Source: an uncultured bacterium | GTDB lineage: Bacteria > Elusimicrobiota > Elusimicrobia > Elusimicrobiales > Elusimicrobiaceae | Reading direction: 5' to 3' | DNA length: 64,000 bases | NCBI GenBank assembly: GCA_949291365.1 | Contig: CASEVJ010000011.1 | Location: 23,661-87,660 of the forward strand | Shown: positions 35,001 through 46,021 of the stretch, piece after piece | Layout of the letters: every line of letters begins with the position of its first letter | Position numbering within the stretch: the first letter of the stretch is position 1 | Made by a program: the position numbers and the translations under genes | Notes under the pieces: generated by a model | What the model saw: the letters and a program-made list of their open reading frames with translations, nothing else | Told to the model about the DNA's origin: nothing | The model's database searches: none

Positions 35001-37739
35001 TTAGCGCGCCTGGACGGAATCTAACAGGTTTTTGGAGTCCGATATCGTGGGATCCAGGGTATTCGTAACCGTGTTGTAATTGAAGCGGTACGAAATTTTA
35101 AAGCTCTGCGGATTCTCGGGCGGTATCTTGACCAGAATGGAATAATTGTCCGGCTCTACGGCAGTGGTAATATTCCATTCAATCATCTGCTGGGCCGCCG
35201 GGTGACGCGAATTAATGAGCTGCTGCAGGGTTTGGCCGTTGGCTAAAGGGAAATTTTGGACTTGCGCCAAAATGGGATCCAACGGATTAGCTGCCGGCTG
35301 TACAGGCATCATTGGGGCATTTTGCCCATAGGCCTGCTGCGGCATGCCGGGCTGCATGGCTCCCGCCGGCATTTGTTGCTGGCCGGGCTGTAAGCCCGCC
35401 TGCGGCATTTGCTGGGTATAATCCTGCGGCATTGCTTGGGGCATATCCGCCGGGGCTTGTTCGGGCTGCTGCGGCAGCATTTCATTTAATTGCTCATCCA
35501 GGGCCTGTTGCTCTTGGGCAGAGGAAGAGGATTTGATGAAATTAAACTGCGGCGGCAGAATTTCCAGATATCCCAGCATGACGTAAATCAAGGCCAGGAT
35601 AATGACAGACACCGCTGAGCCCAACACAATTTTAGTACCTTTGCTGCTGCCGGGCTTAATGTCGGCCGCTTTCATGTCGTGCTGAGTGTTGATATCTAAG
35701 TCCGAATCCGTCAAATCCAAACGGTTAGAGTCACCCGGTTCTTTGACCATAGGCACAGTTTTGATGTCCATGGTGGCGCCGCGTTTAGTTTTAATCGTGT
35801 TTTCCAAAATTACTTTGGATACCGTCAAATCTGCCTCATCTTTTTTGGAAGTAAGGATTTCTTCCACGGCTTCTTCCTTCTCTTCCTCTTTCTTGTCTTC
35901 GGAGGCAGCGCCGCCGTATTCTTTAGGCAAGGCCGATTGAGCAGCCGCTCCGGATGTTTGGGCCGGCGGAATGAAATCCGAAATTAGATAGGTGGATCCT
36001 TCTTTTAATTCCACTTCCGTTAGGTCATTGGGATTTTGCGGAGCGGGGGCTTCTGCCAAGGTTTCCTGTTGAAAACTTTCCACTTCTTCAGCCGGTGATT
36101 GCGTTTCTTCCGGCAGCGGGAATTCCTCCGTAGGTGTGCGCTCAGTGAATGCTTCTGCTAAGTCTGCCTGGGAAATCAAACCGTCGTCTTCTCTTTGCGG
36201 CTCTATTTTTTTACCAGGCACCAACTCTTTAATAGTTTCCGTAATCTCTTTCTGTTCTCCGCCGACAGCTTCATTGGGGTTCATGGGAGTTACAGCGTCA
36301 GAAAGGACATTGCCGCCAAAGGGTGTCTGCGCCGGGGCATTGTCGGCAACTGCCGGCACCGGCTGCTCCGGTTCTTCAGTTTGGGCAATATTAAGCTGGG
36401 GCTGATCGCCCAAATTTAAATCCAGAGATTCTTTTTCCGCTGGTAAATCCATCGGGGCCGGTTCCGCCGGGGCCTGCGGCTCATCGGCCGTAGGCAAAGA
36501 CAAAGCCGGCTCATCAGCCGTAGGCAAAGACAAGGAGGGTTCCTGCGCCGGGGTCGGTTCCGCCGGGGCCTGCGGCTCATCGGCTGTAGGCAAAGACAAA
36601 GCCGGCTCATCAGCCGTAGGCAAAGACAAGGAGGGTTCCTGCGCCGGGGCCGGTTCCGCCGGGGCCTGCGGCTCTTCCGTTTGAGCAATACCCTCTATAC
36701 CGGAAAGAGCCGGTTTTTCGGCTTGTTCGGCTTCTTGTATGGCTTGTGCGATTAAATCATTTTGTTGTGCCGGAGCCGTGATTTCATTGATAATTTCTTC
36801 CCGTTTTTCTTCGGTAATTGGCTGGCCGGGCGCCTGTACTGCGGGCTGGGGTGGCTGTTGGGGAGCTTGCGGCTGCTCTTTATTTTCTTCTCCGTCTAAA
36901 GAGAGCACAATATCCGGCGTTTGTTGGGGCGCGGCGGGCTCCTGCGCGGCTGGTTCTTCAGCCGGTGTTTGCGGCTGGGGCTGCTGTGCAGGCAACGCGG
37001 CGTCCGTAGTTATTTTGGCCGAAGAAAGCAAATCCTGGAAAGTGGCTTCTTTTTCAGCTTCGGGCTGTACTTTGGCATTATACAGCGAATCCAGCGCCGA
37101 GCGCAGAATCAATTCTTCGCCGCCTTTTTCTGATAAATTTTCCGTTTTTCCAGAGCCGATTTCAATTTCATCTAAAAAGTCTACGGGTTTGGCCTGGGGG
37201 TTGGAGCTGGCCTGGGCAACCAGCTGTTCGGCATGATTTACCAAACTTTCCGTATTGGTGATGGTGGCGTCTTCATTGACGGGTTCGGATACGGGCTGGG
37301 GTGCCGGGGCAGAAAACGGCTGCGGCTGGGGAGCCGGAGCTGCTGCCGGAGCACTGTGGGCCGCTGCTTCTAAAGCGGCGTCCAGTTTTGTCTTAAGGCC
37401 TTCTATTTCCCGGGTTAAATTGTCAATCTTTTCTATTAAAATCTGCGTGACAGAGGTGTCCGCTACCGGCACCTGAGTAACCGGCGAAGTGGCCGTAACA
37501 TCGGCTGTTTTGCCCTGGATGGTATCCAGTTCTTCTTGGGTCAGCGGAGCGCGGGTCATCGTTTTGGATGCCTCGTCAAATTCAAAAATATTGGAAGCTT
37601 TCACCCATTCCTGGCTGCCGCCCTCTTCTATTTCTTCGGAGCAAATCAGCGTTTCCGGCGTAAAGCCGTCTAATGAGACGAGTTTTTCCTCGTCGTAGGG
37701 ACCGTCCACCTTATCATTAATATAAACCCAGTATCTCAT
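35001..37739 (-). CDS. Membrane-anchored protein: N-terminal GYF_2-like domain, long acidic Pro-rich linker, TM, C-terminal domain
   Basis: YWVYINDKVDGPY start; about 600 aa low-complexity E/P/A/Q; TM IVLGSAVSVIILALIYVMLGYL. Confidence 0.75.
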   Translation of the reverse strand: MRYWVYINDKVDGPYDEEKLVSLDGFTPETLICSEEIEEGGSQEWVKASNIFEFDEASKTMTRAPLTQEELDTIQGKTADVTATSPVTQVPVADTSVTQILIEKIDNLTREIEGLKTKLDAALEAAAHSAPAAAPAPQPQPFSAPAPQPVSEPVNEDATITNTESLVNHAEQLVAQASSNPQAKPVDFLDEIEIGSGKTENLSEKGGEELILRSALDSLYNAKVQPEAEKEATFQDLLSSAKITTDAALPAQQPQPQTPAEEPAAQEPAAPQQTPDIVLSLDGEENKEQPQAPQQPPQPAVQAPGQPITEEKREEIINEITAPAQQNDLIAQAIQEAEQAEKPALSGIEGIAQTEEPQAPAEPAPAQEPSLSLPTADEPALSLPTADEPQAPAEPTPAQEPSLSLPTADEPALSLPTADEPQAPAEPAPMDLPAEKESLDLNLGDQPQLNIAQTEEPEQPVPAVADNAPAQTPFGGNVLSDAVTPMNPNEAVGGEQKEITETIKELVPGKKIEPQREDDGLISQADLAEAFTERTPTEEFPLPEETQSPAEEVESFQQETLAEAPAPQNPNDLTEVELKEGSTYLISDFIPPAQTSGAAAQSALPKEYGGAASEDKKEEEKEEAVEEILTSKKDEADLTVSKVILENTIKTKRGATMDIKTVPMVKEPGDSNRLDLTDSDLDINTQHDMKAADIKPGSSKGTKIVLGSAVSVIILALIYVMLGYLEILPPQFNFIKSSSSAQEQQALDEQLNEMLPQQPEQAPADMPQAMPQDYTQQMPQAGLQPGQQQMPAGAMQPGMPQQAYGQNAPMMPVQPAANPLDPILAQVQNFPLANGQTLQQLINSRHPAAQQMIEWNITTAVEPDNYSILVKIPPENPQSFKISYRFNYNTVTNTLDPTISDSKNLLDSVQAR
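36454..36674. repeat. Intragenic tandem repeat, 96-nt unit, about 2.3 copies, with an internal 30-nt sub-repeat
   Basis: Units start at 36454, 36550 and 36646; they encode EPAPAQEPSLSLPTADEPALSLPTADEPQAPA. Confidence 0.92.
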
Positions 37740-37837
37740 GTTTTCACCCTAGCATTTAAAAATAAACCATCACGATACAAGCATACAAAATTATCTTTCT
37801 TTTGAATAGCCCTTTTTATAGATTTTCCAGAGGGCGT

Positions 37838-42919: not shown

Positions 42920-43257
42920 TGATTTATATCCGGCGACAGGCCGGATTTTTTATGTCTAAAGCGGGGCGAGTGTACAGGAACGATAAACGGGGAGCGCACA
43001 AACTGCTTTGTGCGCGTGGGGACGAGAAAGGCGGAGCGATGTTTTTGTTTGAGCGAAGCAAAAGGCAAAAACCGCGAGCCCGGCCTGCAGGCGTTTGCCG
43101 TCAGGCAAACGACCGGAAGGCGAGTTCAGTCCCCGCGCATGATTTATATCCGGCGGCAGGCCGGATTTTTTATGCCCAGATTTCCACGCGGGCGGGGTAT
43201 GGATTATGTTAAGAGCGGGGAGCGCACAAACTTCTTTGTGCGCGTGGGGATGAGAAA
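42911..43257 (+). repeat. tRNA-Leu 3'-end-associated direct repeat, about 220-nt period
   Basis: CCCCGCGCATGATTTATATCCGGCG(A/G)CAGGCCGGATTTTTTATG at 42911 and 43131; CGGGGAGCGCACAAACT(G/T)CTTTGTGCGCGTGGGGA at 42988 and 43216. Confidence 0.9.
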
Positions 43258-43316
43258 ATGGCTCAATAGTTGGACTTGAGAAGGGTACAAGCCGTGCAAA
43301 AACTTCCATGAAAATC

Positions 43317-43945: not shown

Positions 43946-44242
43946 TTATTTGCCCGGAGTGACCGGAGCCGTAGGAGCCGGAAGATTTACTTTGTCTAAT
44001 ACAGACGAAGAGGCCTTGTTGTTATAAGACACCGTCAGCAAAATAGAAGTGATAAATAACAATACCGCCAAACCGGCAGTTAGTTTGTTTACGGCGTTAA
44101 AAGCGGTGGGGCTGGCAAAAATATTATCTGCGCCGGAGGCACCAAAAATCCCGGCGGCGGAACCTTTTCCGCTTTGCAATAAGATGAGCAAAATCAACAA
44201 AATGCACGCAAAATAGTGAATGATGAGAAGAAGCGTTTGCAT
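43946..44242 (-). CDS. secG: Preprotein translocase subunit SecG
   Basis: Two TM; ILLQSGKGSAAGIFG and NKLT; AGGAG RBS. Confidence 0.9.
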   Translation of the reverse strand: MQTLLLIIHYFACILLILLILLQSGKGSAAGIFGASGADNIFASPTAFNAVNKLTAGLAVLLFITSILLTVSYNNKASSSVLDKVNLPAPTAPVTPGK

Positions 44243-44533
44243 AAATTTTATATCTCCTGTAAAAGTAACGTATTTATTATACAATTTTTACCGCATATAT
44301 GTGTATGATACAGACGCAGCGGATAGAAATGACATGTGGATACCCTCGGCTATTTACATGAAATGTTTAGGTGTTTTGTTACAAGGTAATTTTCTGCAAA
44401 AATAATTTCTTCTATATGAGCAGGAAAGCCACTGGGTGAATGTGGTCTCTGCATTTGATTTCTGGCGTTTTTTGGGCCCGGGGCAAATAAAAATCCCCCC
44501 GCCTAAGTCGGAGGGATTTGTTTGTGTCAGGGG

Positions 44534-44793
44534 TTATTTTGTCAAAGACACAAGTCTGGGCAATTCTTTGGACAAAAATAGACCGGGCCCCAAACAACAG
44601 GGCCCGGTTTGTGTCAATAAGCTGGGGGAAGCCCAAAGACTTGCCCTATTTGGTCAATGCGACCAAACCCGGCAATTCTTTGGGCAAAAATAGACCGGGC
44701 CCCAACAATAGGGCCCGGTTTGTGTGTCTATAGCTGGGGGAAGCCCAAAGACTTGCCTTATTTGGTTAAAGCGACCAAACCCGGCAATTCTTT
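44534..44793 (-). repeat. Tandem array of pgk 3' ends with a 112-nt period (three 36-nt gene ends, two 76-nt linkers)
   Basis: Stop codons at 44758, 44646 and 44534; copies encode KELPGLVALTK*, KELPGLVALTK* and KELPRLVSLTK*; the linkers are near-identical and each has a CCGGGCCC/GGGCCCGG hairpin. Confidence 0.93.
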
Positions 44794-45951
44794 GCCTTCC
44801 ACAAATTCCATACTGGCGCCGCCGCCCGTGGAAACGTGCGAAAACGCTTTCTGGTCAATTTTGCCTTTCTTGAGCACATTGACGCTGTCGCCGCCGCCGA
44901 TGATGGAAATGGCGCCGTTTTTGGTGGCTTCAATCATCGCATTGGCAATTGCGTAGCTGCCTGCGGCAAAATTGGGGAATTCAAACACGCCCATAGGGCC
45001 GTTCCAGAAAATCGTTTTGCATTTGAGCAGTTCGTCGGCAAACAATTTCTCCGTCTTGGGGCCGATGTCCATGCCTTCCATGTCGGCGGGAATGGTGTCG
45101 GACACGACGGCTTCTGCCGTTTCGGAAAATTCTTTAGCTAGGCGGAAATCCACCGGCATCAACATTTTGACGCCTTTAGCTTCGGCTTTAGCCATAACCT
45201 GTTTGGCTTCTTCAATTTTGCTTTCATCAAGCAGGGATTTGCCCACTTCCATGCCTTTGGCTTTCAGGAAAGTATAGGCCATGCCGCCGCCGATGATGAG
45301 CACATTGACTTTGTCCAACAAGTTGTTAAGCAGCATAATTTTGTCGGACACTTTCGCCCCGCCAATGACGGCTGCAAACGGGCGGGCCGGATTATTGAGG
45401 GCTTTACCCAAAAATTCCACTTCTTTCTGCACCAAGAAGCCCATAGAGCCCGGCAGATATTGCGCAATAGCGCTGGTAGAGGCGTGGGCGCGGTGCACGG
45501 TGCCGAACGCTTCCTGCACAAACACTTCACCGTGTTTGGCCAGCTGTTTGGCAAATTCGGGGTCGTTCTTTTCTTCTTCGGGGTGGAAGCGCAGGTTTTC
45601 CAAGAGCACAATTTCGCCGTTTTTGGCGCTTTCCACTACTTTGTCAGCTTCCGGGCCGACGCAGTCTTTGGCAAAGTGCACGGGAACGCCGAACACTCTC
45701 TGCACTTCTTCCGCCACTGGGGCCAAGCTAAATTCCGGCGCTACTTTGCCTTTGGGGCGGCCCAGGTGGGCCATCAAAACGATGCGGCAGTTGTTGTCAA
45801 GCAGATGCTTGATAGTTTTTTCCGTGGCAACGATGCGTTTGTTGTTGTCCACTTTGCCGTCTTTGAGGGGCACGTTGTAGTCCACGCGCACCAATACTTT
45901 TTTGTTTTTCAAATCTACGTCCTGCACTTTTTTAATGCTGTCAAAATTCAT
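44758..45951 (-). CDS. pgk: Phosphoglycerate kinase
   Basis: RVDYNVP, HLGRP, LLENLRF, GGAKVSDK, WNGPMG, GGGDS, STGGGASMEF. Confidence 0.98.
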   Translation of the reverse strand: MNFDSIKKVQDVDLKNKKVLVRVDYNVPLKDGKVDNNKRIVATEKTIKHLLDNNCRIVLMAHLGRPKGKVAPEFSLAPVAEEVQRVFGVPVHFAKDCVGPEADKVVESAKNGEIVLLENLRFHPEEEKNDPEFAKQLAKHGEVFVQEAFGTVHRAHASTSAIAQYLPGSMGFLVQKEVEFLGKALNNPARPFAAVIGGAKVSDKIMLLNNLLDKVNVLIIGGGMAYTFLKAKGMEVGKSLLDESKIEEAKQVMAKAEAKGVKMLMPVDFRLAKEFSETAEAVVSDTIPADMEGMDIGPKTEKLFADELLKCKTIFWNGPMGVFEFPNFAAGSYAIANAMIEATKNGAISIIGGGDSVNVLKKGKIDQKAFSHVSTGGGASMEFVEGKELPGLVALTK

Positions 45952-46021
45952 TTCTTTCACCCCTTCTACATTAGAGAAAGCAAAGGCGGCTTTTGCAAGC
46001 CGCCTTTGCTTGTAAGACAGA

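What the first reader, a model, noticed from the sequence alone, without database searches (positions are those of the whole stretch)
44534..44793. Array of alternative pgk 3' ends: candidate 112-bp miniature integrative element
SEEN: the last 12 codons of pgk occur three times at an exact 112-nt period. On the minus strand, copy 1 (the live gene end) is AAA GAA TTG CCG GGT TTG GTC GCT TTA ACC AAA TAA. Copy 2 is ...GTC GCA TTG ACC AAA TAG, with 3 changes, all silent. Copy 3 is AAA GAA TTG CCC AGA CTT GTG TCT TTG ACA AAA TAA, with 9 changes against copy 1: 6 at codon position 3, none at position 2, and 5 of 7 altered codons synonymous. Only AAAGAATTGCC is identical in all three. The two 76-nt linkers are nearly identical and each carries a terminator-like hairpin. 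Copy 3 is followed by a different terminator-like hairpin (about 44489-44519). KNOWN: integrative elements that target a gene's 3' end carry a replacement end and displace the original downstream. INFERENCE: neutral decay of a slippage duplication should not favour silent sites, so each copy was probably once the translated Pgk terminus. This fits two serial insertions of a 112-bp att-only element at the 11-nt core, with copy 3 as the ancestral end. No recombinase is in the window, so it would have to act in trans.
Basis: partly seen in the sequence, partly recalled or inferred. Interest (0 to 1): 0.85.

Follow-up and report, generated by a model that had tools for sequence, protein, structure and literature searches.

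The report
Rotating stack of spare pgk tails
Behind the glycolysis gene pgk of this gut Elusimicrobiaceae bacterium lies an old, genus-wide row of spare "last 12 codons plus terminator" modules; they gain, lose and swap places by ordinary recombination and stay translatable, and nothing shows they are a tiny mobile element.

Summary
On the minus strand, pgk (44758-45951) is followed by two 112-nt units and a third 94-nt unit. Each unit starts with the last 12 pgk codons and ends in an intrinsic terminator.

The array is not private to this genome. In 96 genomes of the genus, 90 carry the translatable 36-nt tail and 52 carry 2-5 copies. Number, order and type vary: type A has a hairpin across the stop codon; type B has an inverted repeat around its terminator.

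- Silent copies differ from live ones mostly at silent sites (70 synonymous versus 22 replacement codons; about 80% replacement expected by chance).
- The live type switched at least 6 times on the pgk tree, and sister genomes differ by loss of the first unit.
- Two 99.35%-identical contigs differ by one 112-nt unit. Its breakpoints lie in an 8-nt repeat inside the tails, not in the 11-nt "core".
- Apart from XerC/XerD-like proteins, no integrase-, resolvase-, HUH- or RT-family hit was found, and no copy turned up elsewhere in the genome, phages, plasmids or viral contigs.
- Orthologous units diverge about as fast as silent sites.

Verdict: a locally recombining stack of spare pgk tails, not an att-only mobile element. 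This scan reached the same reading on another genome of the genus (e1-5235889).

The parts
44758..45951 (-). pgk coding sequence (397 aa from ATG MNFDS...; the ORF is open from GTG at 45960). It ends in the live tail KELPGLVALTK*.
   Evidence: ORF list; NCBIfam PGK match, E 1.4e-165; the exact 397-aa product is on record in other assemblies.
44682..44793 (-). Unit 1, type A, 112 nt: live 36-nt tail (44758-44793), 3' arm GGCAAGTCTTTGGGC, spacer with ACACAAAC, terminator, tail GCCC.
44739..44800 (-). Hairpin of unit 1 that spans the pgk stop codon. The last 12 codons pair with the sequence just after the stop.
   Evidence: Folds with z -4.6 as DNA and within the RNA fold. The same hairpin is predicted in type-A units across the genus. 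Cognate arms pair better than non-cognate arms, P<1e-4.
44694..44719 (-). Intrinsic-terminator-like hairpin 1 (11 pairs, followed by CTATTTTT).
44570..44681 (-). Unit 2, type A, 112 nt: silent tail (44646-44681) that still reads KELPGLVALTK*, with 3 silent changes against unit 1.
44631..44685 (-). Hairpin of unit 2. The 25-nt arms include the GCCC that ends unit 1, so the stem spans the unit junction.
   Evidence: Inverted repeat I2; fold z -6.9.
44582..44608 (-). Intrinsic-terminator-like hairpin 2.
44476..44569 (-). Unit 3, type B, 94 nt: silent tail (44534-44569) reading KELPRLVSLTK*, then CCCCTGACACAAAC, its own terminator and the tail GCCCCGGGC. Against the live type-B tail of L010 it has 4 changes, 2 replacement and 2 silent. 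The other type-B tails of the clade also read GGA, GCT, CTC and ACG at these four codons, so the tail looks to be drifting.
   Evidence: The unit as a whole is 93% identical to the live unit of L010.
44491..44519 (-). Intrinsic-terminator-like hairpin 3, belonging to the type-B unit.
43946..44305 (-). secG (98 aa, 43946-44242) with its own promoter-like site (44276-44305). This is the conserved downstream neighbour that bounds the variable interval.
   Evidence: NCBIfam secG; promoter scan; gene calls in L309.

Best explanation
The array is a locus-bound tandem stack of pgk 3'-end modules that dates back to the ancestor of this gut Elusimicrobiaceae genus.

Each module holds the last 12 pgk codons plus stop, a structured 3' segment and an intrinsic terminator. 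In type A the tail pairs with the sequence just after the stop. In type B an 8-9-nt inverted repeat encloses the stop and terminator.

The stack changes by ordinary homology-driven events between in-register copies: unequal crossing-over or replication slippage at short identical stretches, probably helped by the hairpins. Units are duplicated, deleted and re-ordered. Any in-register crossover that involves the first unit leaves pgk with a complete, correct end, so these events are harmless. They also change which module is translated.

Every module lineage therefore spends part of its history as the live terminus, and fresh copies are made from live ones. That would explain why silent copies differ from live ones almost only at silent sites, while the most distal copies, once stranded, decay and are lost.

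Shown here: the anatomy, the genus-wide variation, the silent-site bias, switches of live type between sister genomes, and one whole-unit deletion with breakpoints inside the tails.

Inferred: the molecular route (RecA-dependent or slippage), the rate, and whether the extra hairpins and terminators are useful or merely tolerated.
For: 1. Genus-wide and variable. Of 96 genomes, 90 have the translatable tail: 38 have one copy, 31 two, 15 three, 5 four and 1 five, always on one strand (only G107 had one hit on each strand), with neighbouring hits mostly about 90-140 nt apart. The control pattern gives 0. Orders include A-A-B, B-A-B, B-A-B-A, B-B-A-B', A-B-A and X-Y-X-Y.

2. Recombination caught in the act. 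L290 and L291 are 99.35% identical over 6.6 kb and differ by one 112-nt indel bounded by the 8-nt repeat GCTTTGAC inside an A tail and a B tail. The hybrid tail still reads KELPGLVALTK*.

3. Switching of the live module. Live type A versus B needs at least 6 changes on a 65-row pgk tree (4 of them outgroups), and single versus multiple needs at least 16. Sister pairs differ by the first unit: L028 A-B-A versus L270 B-A at 97% pgk identity, and L259 Y-X-Y versus L255 X-Y-Y at 95%.

4. Genomes encoding the identical 397-aa Pgk differ at 64-83 silent sites over the gene, and 7 of these fall in the last 25 nt, which marks a module swap.

5. Coding-like constraint on silent copies. In 22 live-versus-silent pairs there are 70 synonymous and 22 replacement codons. 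Changes by codon position are 26/10/84. Random expectation is 80% replacement, and 0 of 5000 simulations were as low. Nearest-neighbour pairs give 7% replacement for live-live, 9% for live-silent and 20% for silent-silent.

6. Distal copies are often truncated or frameshifted (L255, L258, L260, L261, L264, L278).

7. Vertical descent. Non-coding parts of orthologous units are 0.83-0.98 identical where pgk third positions are 0.78-0.91.

8. No mobile-element machinery or second location was found.

9. Outgroups have one tail, no hairpin and no array. In two of them secG starts 8 nt after the pgk stop.
Against: - Pure unequal recombination does not by itself explain how two structurally different module types (A and B) first arose, or why both persist in scattered lineages.
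- Some arrays show tails that differ at 8 of 36 silent sites while their non-coding parts differ at 1 of 76 (G043). This needs mosaic exchange at conserved blocks (the tail start, ACACAAAC) or import from other lineages.
- Parallel amino-acid changes occur in both tail types of one lineage: Thr in the clade of this genome, and Val>Ala in G045. These imply stronger or more frequent exposure to selection than the observed switching rate obviously provides.
- No reads could be examined, so within-population heterogeneity, rates and circular products are unknown.
- The genome is 93% complete.
Confidence: 0.7

Rival explanations
1. First reader's model. Each 112-bp unit is a protein-less, att-only integrative element that a recombinase encoded elsewhere inserts at the 11-nt core AAAGAATTGCC. 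Each insertion supplies a new pgk end and pushes the old one downstream.
For: - The repeats begin sharply at the same codon in all species.
- Proximal copies complete the gene and distal ones decay.
- The 3' arm of type A is complementary to the junction plus tail start, like a folded site.
- This scan's earlier, unchecked notes describe tiny gene-end-replacing cassettes in other phyla.
- A dispersed element family linked to tRNA genes exists in this same genus.
Against: - The only resolved recent event has its breakpoints at GCTTTGAC inside the tails.
- Irregular partial units are joined at other microhomologies (L015, L256, L272).
- Only XerC/XerD-like recombinases are present, the unit has no dif-like site, and no integron integrase passes its cut-off.
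- Arrays occur in genomes with only two integrase-family hits, while integrase-rich genomes may have a single tail.
- The unit is confined to this one locus and absent from viral, phage and plasmid collections.
- Units diverge like silent sites between species.
Confidence: 0.07
2. C-terminal displacement by imported DNA. The different tails are pgk ends captured from other species or strains of the genus. DNA is taken up and recombines with a long homologous anchor in pgk and a short match at a resident tail. The donor's end plus terminator is stacked in front of the resident one, as proposed for rhs tips.
For: - Tails within one array can be as different at silent sites as tails of different species, while staying translatable.
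- Many silent units are closest to the live unit of another species. One example is L256 unit 1, 94% identical to the live unit of L042 where pgk is 86% identical.
- The neighbouring interval holds variable pilin-like genes, consistent with a recombination-prone spot.
- The rhs model is published (PMC2935791).
Against: - For close species pairs, unit divergence tracks pgk silent-site divergence.
- pgk itself shows an even spread of differences up to the last 25 nt, with no sign of a recent imported block.
- Alternating patterns and sister-pair differences are explained by deleting or duplicating resident units.
- No donor-recipient pair with near-identical units was found.
Confidence: 0.15
3. 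Selected RNA function. Each unit is kept because the hairpin, the single-stranded ACACAAAC segment and the terminator act in RNA. They could serve as a 3'-UTR stability or processing element, as redundant terminators insulating secG, or as small RNAs derived from the 3' UTR. On this view copy number is under selection. This can coexist with the recombination mechanism.
For: - The hairpin across the stop codon is conserved across the genus with matching changes in both arms: TTGCC with GGCAA in 12 of 17 units, and CTTCC with GGAAR in 6 of 7. Cognate arms give -13.9 versus -11.8 kcal/mol, P<1e-4.
- ACACAAAC is kept in both unit types although it is not a genome-wide motif.
- The array has persisted in small, streamlined genomes.
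- Unit non-coding parts are slightly more conserved than third codon positions.
Against: - 38 of 96 genomes manage with one tail, and several singles lack the hairpin.
- There is no Rfam match.
- No promoter-like site is called inside the array on the pgk strand.
- An RNA function would not require silent copies to stay translatable.
Confidence: 0.2
4. Assembly artefact or mixture of strains collapsed into one contig.
For: Many relatives' contigs break inside the array.
Against: An independent assembly from another sample has the same array with 1 mismatch in 4 kb, and a Logan contig carries units 2 and 3. The units differ enough (8%) to be resolved, and the architecture recurs in dozens of genomes.
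Confidence: 0.01

Closest known systems
C-terminal displacement arrays at rhs (and CDI) loci
   Same: An intact gene is followed by a row of dissociated alternative 3' ends that begin at a conserved junction. Homologous recombination is the proposed driver, and older ends are pushed downstream.
   Different: rhs tips encode different toxin domains and are thought to be laterally acquired. Here all tails encode the same 11 residues of a housekeeping enzyme, each comes with a terminator and no gene, units are about 100 nt, and descent looks mainly vertical.
Integrative elements in gene 3' ends and their integrase-less remnants (CIMEs). Examples: tandem accretion at tRNA or protein genes (Guedon et al. 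2017, PMC5704250), ssrA islands of Dehalococcoides (PMC3146451), and e14 in icd leaving icdC (own knowledge).
   Same: The gene's end is duplicated, the proximal copy completes the gene, the displaced copy differs mostly at silent sites, and tandem stacks are possible.
   Different: There is no cargo, no integrase, no second location and no fixed crossover point. The units are two orders of magnitude smaller than known CIMEs.
Tandem-repeat arrays evolving by unequal crossing-over or slipped-strand mispairing between short direct repeats, stimulated by intervening hairpins (textbook mechanism; own knowledge)
   Same: Whole-unit gains and losses among close relatives, breakpoints in short identical stretches, and partial homogenisation within arrays.
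   Different: The repeat straddles the end of an essential gene, so each event changes which copy is translated. The copies also keep a coding-like substitution pattern.
Silent-cassette systems (Neisseria pilE/pilS, Borrelia vlsE) and shufflons that switch a gene's 3' segment (own knowledge)
   Same: One expressed gene sits next to promoter-less partial copies of its 3' part that can replace the expressed version.
   Different: Those systems create protein diversity by gene conversion or by a dedicated invertase. Here the alternatives are synonymous, and the events seen are deletions and duplications.

Membership tests
Site-specific integrative element / att-only (CIME-type) remnant | Direct repeats of the target gene's 3' end bracket the inserted DNA, and the proximal repeat completes the gene. 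| tested here: met
   Three in-register pgk tails; the first completes pgk.
Site-specific integrative element / att-only (CIME-type) remnant | A cognate site-specific recombinase, in the element or elsewhere in the genome. | tested here: not met
   The own genome (93% complete) has two PF00589 hits, both XerC/XerD-like, and no resolvase, Y1-HUH or RT. Many array-bearing relatives also have only two. No integrase lies between pgk and secG in the relatives inspected.
Site-specific integrative element / att-only (CIME-type) remnant | Strand exchange confined to one fixed core sequence. | tested here: not met
   The L290/L291 indel is bounded by GCTTTGAC near the 3' end of the tails, not by AAAGAATTGCC. 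Odd partial units are joined at other microhomologies.
Site-specific integrative element / att-only (CIME-type) remnant | The element exists outside this site: an attP form, other loci, or near-identical copies in unrelated hosts. | tested here: not met
   Single locus in the own genome. Zero hits in IMG/VR patterns, phages and plasmids. Inter-species divergence matches that of silent sites.
Site-specific integrative element / att-only (CIME-type) remnant | Excised circle and restored empty site detectable in reads. | not testable with these tools
Tandem array evolving by unequal homologous recombination or slippage | Head-to-tail units in constant register. | tested here: met
   TRF period 112, 92% matches. 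Neighbouring copies lie mostly about 90-140 nt apart in 52 genomes.
Tandem array evolving by unequal homologous recombination or slippage | Close relatives differ by whole units. | tested here: met
   L290 versus L291, 99.35% identical, differ by one 112-nt unit. Sister species differ by the first unit.
Tandem array evolving by unequal homologous recombination or slippage | Breakpoints fall in short identical stretches at variable homologous positions. | tested here: met
   The 8-nt GCTTTGAC. A CCGGGC junction in L015, and other partial units.
C-terminal displacement array (rhs/CDI type) | The alternative ends encode different C-terminal domains, with cognate immunity genes. | tested here: not met
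   Nearly all complete tails read KELPGL(V/A/T)AL(A/T)K*, and no ORF accompanies them.
C-terminal displacement array (rhs/CDI type) | New ends are acquired laterally. | tested here: inconclusive
   Some silent units are closest to live units of other species, but divergence tracks silent sites in close pairs.
Integron cassette / attC site | IntI integrase and attC with R''-L''/L'-R' boxes (GTTRRRY core). | tested here: not met
   The integron-integrase models score far below their cut-offs on the two Xer-like proteins. By inspection, no GTTRRRY box is at the unit borders.
Xer-dependent integrative element (IMEX) | A dif-like 28-bp site in the element. | tested here: not met
   The dif-like candidates found in the genome do not fall in the array (G000:C11:68136-68453), and by eye (no alignment made) the units show no likeness to them.

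The most novel reading that the evidence does not exclude
The pgk-tail modules might not be passive repeats. They could be a locus-adapted relative of the protein-less, hairpin- or guide-bearing 'gene-end-replacing' cassettes that this scan has reported behind tRNA, topA, gyrB and rpsJ genes of ultra-small bacteria.

A clearly dispersed member of such a class sits behind tRNA genes in this very genus: a family with a 98-nt core, found in 92 of 96 genomes.

On this reading, the arm complementary to the tail start guides an unidentified enzyme, acting in trans, to insert or exchange modules at the pgk end.
Probability: 0.08. Interest if true: 0.85.

Novelty: new variant of a known kind. Interest (0 to 1): 0.5.

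Why it matters
Stacks of displaced gene ends are normally read as footprints of integrating mobile elements. This case is an essential housekeeping gene whose stack is best explained without any mobile element, so it is a caution for att-site and island finders.

It is also a natural experiment. Promoter-less, untranslated copies of 12 codons keep a coding-like substitution pattern across about a hundred species. That makes indirect selection on currently unexpressed copies directly measurable. One could ask how often a silent copy must be exposed for selection to keep it intact.

The conserved hairpin built from the last codons and the 3' UTR shows synonymous sites shaped by structure. Finally, the locus explains why many assemblies of this genus break right after pgk.

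Tried and rejected
- **Consensus fold.** RNAalifold on a MAFFT alignment of 30 type-A units found no hairpin, because the 3' arms were mis-registered by indels. I replaced it with single-sequence folds and a cognate-versus-non-cognate arm test.
- **DNA uptake sequence.** ACACAAAC is not enriched genome-wide: 41+25 occurrences against about 41 expected.
- **Diversity-generating retroelement.** The differences between copies are not adenine-specific, and no RT is present.
- **Type B as a MITE.** It has 8-9-nt inverted repeats and an apparent 8-nt flanking duplication AAAGAATT. I rejected this because the unit exists at this one locus only and the genome has no multi-copy IS-sized repeat.
- **Cassette reading.** The variable pilin-like genes are not bracketed by tails. 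They lie between the array and secG, and the tails are always clustered right behind pgk.
- **Xer/dif-like site in the unit.** None found.
- **Short ORFs reading the silent tails.** None is conserved (by inspection).
Full report
**1. Observation**

On the minus strand, pgk (44758-45951; NCBIfam PGK match; the exact 397-aa product is on record elsewhere) ends in AAAGAATTGCCGGGTTTGGTCGCTTTAACCAAATAA. The same 36 nt recur 112 and 224 nt downstream, with 3 and 9 changes respectively.

- Tandem Repeats Finder reports period 112, 2.1 copies and 92% matches.
- Changes in copy 3 fall 3/0/6 on codon positions 1/2/3, giving 5 synonymous and 2 replacement codons.
- Three terminator-like hairpins are called, at 44694-44719, 44582-44608 and 44491-44519.
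- secG follows with its own promoter-like site.
- An independent assembly from another sample has the same array with 1 mismatch in 4012 nt, so it is not an assembly artefact.

**2. Anatomy**

There are two unit types.

Type A is window units 1 and 2. It consists of the 36-nt tail, then GGCAAGTCTTTGGGC, which is complementary to (GCCC)AAAGAATTGCC at the start of the tail. The last 12 codons and the stop therefore lie inside a hairpin of about 55 nt (inverted repeat I2; DNA fold z -4.6 and -6.9; RNA fold z -5.7 for the whole array). A spacer ending in ACACAAAC follows, then a GC-rich terminator and a short tail.

Type B is window unit 3. It consists of the tail, 2-9 nt, GACACAAACAAA, a different terminator, and a tail (AGTCCGGG-like). 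In intact copies this tail is the inverted repeat of CCCGGACT inside the coding tail.

The unit occurs nowhere else in the 1.39-Mb genome. There is no Rfam match.

**3. Who and how widespread**

Related contigs are named Elusimicrobiaceae, Elusimicrobium sp. or Candidatus Avelusimicrobium, from animal and human guts.

A strict translatable pattern (AARGARYTNCCNGGNYTNRYNGCNYTNDBNAARTAR, at most 1 mismatch) was searched in 96 genomes of the genus.

| Hits per genome | 0 | 1 | 2 | 3 | 4 | 5 |
|---|---|---|---|---|---|---|
| Genomes | 6 | 38 | 31 | 15 | 5 | 1 |

Hits were always on one strand (only G107 had one hit on each strand), with neighbouring hits mostly about 90-140 nt apart. The reversed control pattern hit nothing. 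Orders of unit types include A-A-B (this genome), B-A-B, B-A-B-A, B-B-A-B', A-B-A and X-Y-X-Y.

More distant Elusimicrobiaceae have one tail and neither hairpin nor array. In two of them secG starts 8 nt after the pgk stop. Same-order genomes from other families matched only within pgk coding sequence.

**4. The silent copies look like coding sequence**

In 22 distinct live-versus-silent pairs, 70 altered codons are synonymous and 22 are replacements, and 11 of those 22 come from two truncated copies. Changes by codon position are 26/10/84. Random placement of the same number of changes gives about 80% replacement codons, and 0 of 5000 simulations were as low as observed.

Nearest-neighbour comparisons between genomes give 7% replacement for live-live pairs, 9% for live-silent and 20% for silent-silent.

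Genomes that encode the identical 397-aa Pgk differ at 64-83 sites, all silent. Seven of these sit in the last 25 nt, because one genome uses an A tail and the other a B tail. Both tail types carry the same lineage-specific residue: Thr in this clade, and Ala for Val in G045.

Part of the silent-site difference between A and B is tied to structure. A tails pair with their 3' arm and B tails (GGACTY) pair with their distal inverted repeat. Among A units the Leu-Pro codons covary with the arm: TTGCC with GGCAA in 12 of 17 units, and CTTCC with GGAAR in 6 of 7. Cognate arms give -13.9 against -11.8 kcal/mol for non-cognate arms (permutation P<1e-4).

Window copy 3 decomposes into the old A-versus-B silent differences plus four further changes against the live B tail of L010. 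Two are replacements (Gly>Arg, Ala>Ser) and two are silent. The other B tails of the clade that I read (L011, L245, L290) also carry GGA, GCT, CTC and ACG at these codons, so the four changes look private to this genome. This is what a stranded copy drifting neutrally would show.

**5. How the stack changes**

Contigs L290 and L291 were found through their identical GAPDH. They are 99.35% identical over 6.6 kb (43 mismatches) and differ by exactly one 112-nt unit. L291 reads A-B-A'-B'. L290 reads A-B-[A'/B' hybrid]. The deletion is bounded by the 8-nt direct repeat GCTTTGAC near the 3' end of the two tails, and the hybrid tail still reads KELPGLVALTK*. This is homology- or microhomology-driven. 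It is not an exchange at the 11-nt 'core'.

Other partial units are joined at further microhomologies, for example ACAAACCGGGC|TTGGTCGC in L015.

On a tree of 65 pgk sequences, including 4 outgroup rows, the live type (A or B) needs at least 6 changes and single versus multiple needs at least 16. Sister pairs differ by the first unit:

- L028 A-B-A versus L270 B-A, at 97% pgk identity.
- L259 Y-X-Y versus L255 X-Y-Y, at 95% pgk identity.

Distal copies are often truncated or frameshifted. Non-coding parts of orthologous units are 0.83-0.98 identical where pgk third positions are 0.78-0.91 identical. This fits vertical descent with mild constraint rather than recent spread.

**6. Tests of the mobile-element reading**

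- Recombinases: the genome (93% complete) has two tyrosine recombinases, best matching XerC and XerD, and no resolvase, Y1-HUH transposase or reverse transcriptase. It has no multi-copy IS-sized repeat.
- Across 61 genomes of the genus, many with arrays have only two integrase-family hits, while some integrase-rich genomes have a single tail.
- The DNA between the array and secG in relatives holds one to three convergent pilin-like genes, and no recombinase.
- The tail or unit is absent from IMG/VR, from GenBank phages and from PLSDB plasmids.
- The unit contains no dif-like or attC-like site.

**7. Interpretation**

The best-supported reading is an old, locus-bound tandem stack. It turns over by unequal recombination or slippage between in-register copies. 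Because any in-register crossover regenerates a complete pgk end, such events are harmless and keep changing which module is translated.

Module lineages therefore alternate between live and silent states, and new copies are made from live ones. This explains the coding-like divergence, while stranded distal copies decay.

What remains inferred:

- The molecular route and the rate.
- How types A and B first arose.
- Whether import from other lineages contributes. Some silent units are closest to live units of other species, and one array has tails differing at 8 of 36 silent sites next to nearly identical non-coding parts.
- Whether the hairpin, the ACACAAAC segment and the extra terminators are useful in RNA.

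**8. Comparison with what is known**

The closest described pattern is C-terminal displacement at rhs loci (PMC2935791). After that come displaced gene ends left by integrative elements and their integrase-less remnants (PMC5704250; PMC3146451).

The pgk stack shares the row of displaced ends. It fails the defining tests for a site-specific element: no recombinase, no fixed crossover and no second location. It also fails the defining test for rhs-type diversification, because all tails encode the same peptide. I file it as a new variant of a known kind.

An earlier follow-up in this scan, on another genome of the genus, reached the same reading (e1-5235889). I saw that note only after reaching mine. 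Its rhs comparison is reused here after I checked the paper.

**9. Seen in passing**

The neighbouring tRNA-Leu repeat is a different matter. A conserved 98-nt core (window 43026-43123, and once more behind tRNA-Thr on another contig) belongs to a multi-copy family present in 92 of 96 genomes of the genus.

- In the 11 loci inspected where a tRNA was called (one further locus was cut at a contig end), the core lies about 80-110 nt behind a tRNA gene, which may be Leu, Thr, Asn, Met, Val or Gln.
- In the Thr and Val copies read base by base, it is preceded by a copy of that tRNA's acceptor 5' strand; most copies shown carry a conserved hairpin there.
- In four of the five copies shown, and at the two own-genome copies, it is followed by a copy of the T-stem and acceptor 3' strand plus a terminator; the Asn copy shows no such repeat.
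- It is sometimes in tandem.

Earlier notes of this scan describe look-alike elements in Patescibacteria. That family is the better candidate for a tiny element or a tRNA-like RNA gene, and it deserves its own follow-up.

Noticed in passing
window 42920-43260 (+), 98-nt core at 43026-43123; second copy G000:C5:183344-183442 (-); relatives L298-L308: A conserved 98-nt core (AAAGGCGGAGCGATGTTTTTGTTTGAGC...GACCGGAAGG) belongs to a multi-copy family present in 92 of 96 genomes of the genus, with up to 12 scored copies per genome. In the 11 loci inspected where a tRNA was called (one further locus was cut at a contig end), it lies about 80-110 nt behind a tRNA gene (Leu, Thr, Asn, Met, Val or Gln). 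In the Thr and Val copies read base by base, it is preceded by a copy of that tRNA's acceptor 5' strand, and most copies shown carry a hairpin with the loop region CAAACTGCTTTG there. In four of the five copies shown, and at the two own-genome copies, it is followed by a copy of the T-stem and acceptor 3' strand (plus CCA where encoded) and a terminator; the Asn copy shows no such repeat. Tandem copies occur at about 199-nt spacing (L303). There is no Rfam match. It could be a family of tRNA-like RNA genes or a tiny element that targets tRNA genes. Earlier notes of this scan report look-alikes in Patescibacteria.
   Followed up: partly
G000:C5:138593-138830 (outside the window): tRNA-Ala(CGC) is followed by two further copies of its terminator at a 102-nt period. 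Each copy is preceded by a roughly 65-nt sequence about 65% similar to the 3' two-thirds of the tRNA. This is a third 'gene end plus terminator' array in this small genome.
   Followed up: partly
Relatives: L122 3203-5050, L124 3061-3585, L245 4563-5108, L247 1820-2356: In many genomes of the genus the interval between the pgk-tail array and secG holds one to three convergent type-IV-pilin-like genes (N_methyl motif, GFTLIELLVVV...). This window has none. The interval is therefore a variable spot flanked by conserved genes.
   Followed up: partly
L049 and L050 (more distant Elusimicrobiaceae): In these two genomes secG starts 8 nt after the pgk stop, with no terminator, hairpin or array. This may be the ancestral tight pgk-secG arrangement. 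No tpiA lies between pgk and secG in any genome inspected.
   Followed up: no
window 36453-36674, inside the 915-aa ORF at 35001-37748 (-): A 96-nt repeat, 2.3 copies at 97% identity, lies within a long open reading frame. Not examined further.
   Followed up: no
G000:C6:54832-56835 (outside the window): Tandem repeats of about 363-399 nt at 83-87% identity. They were not examined.
   Followed up: no
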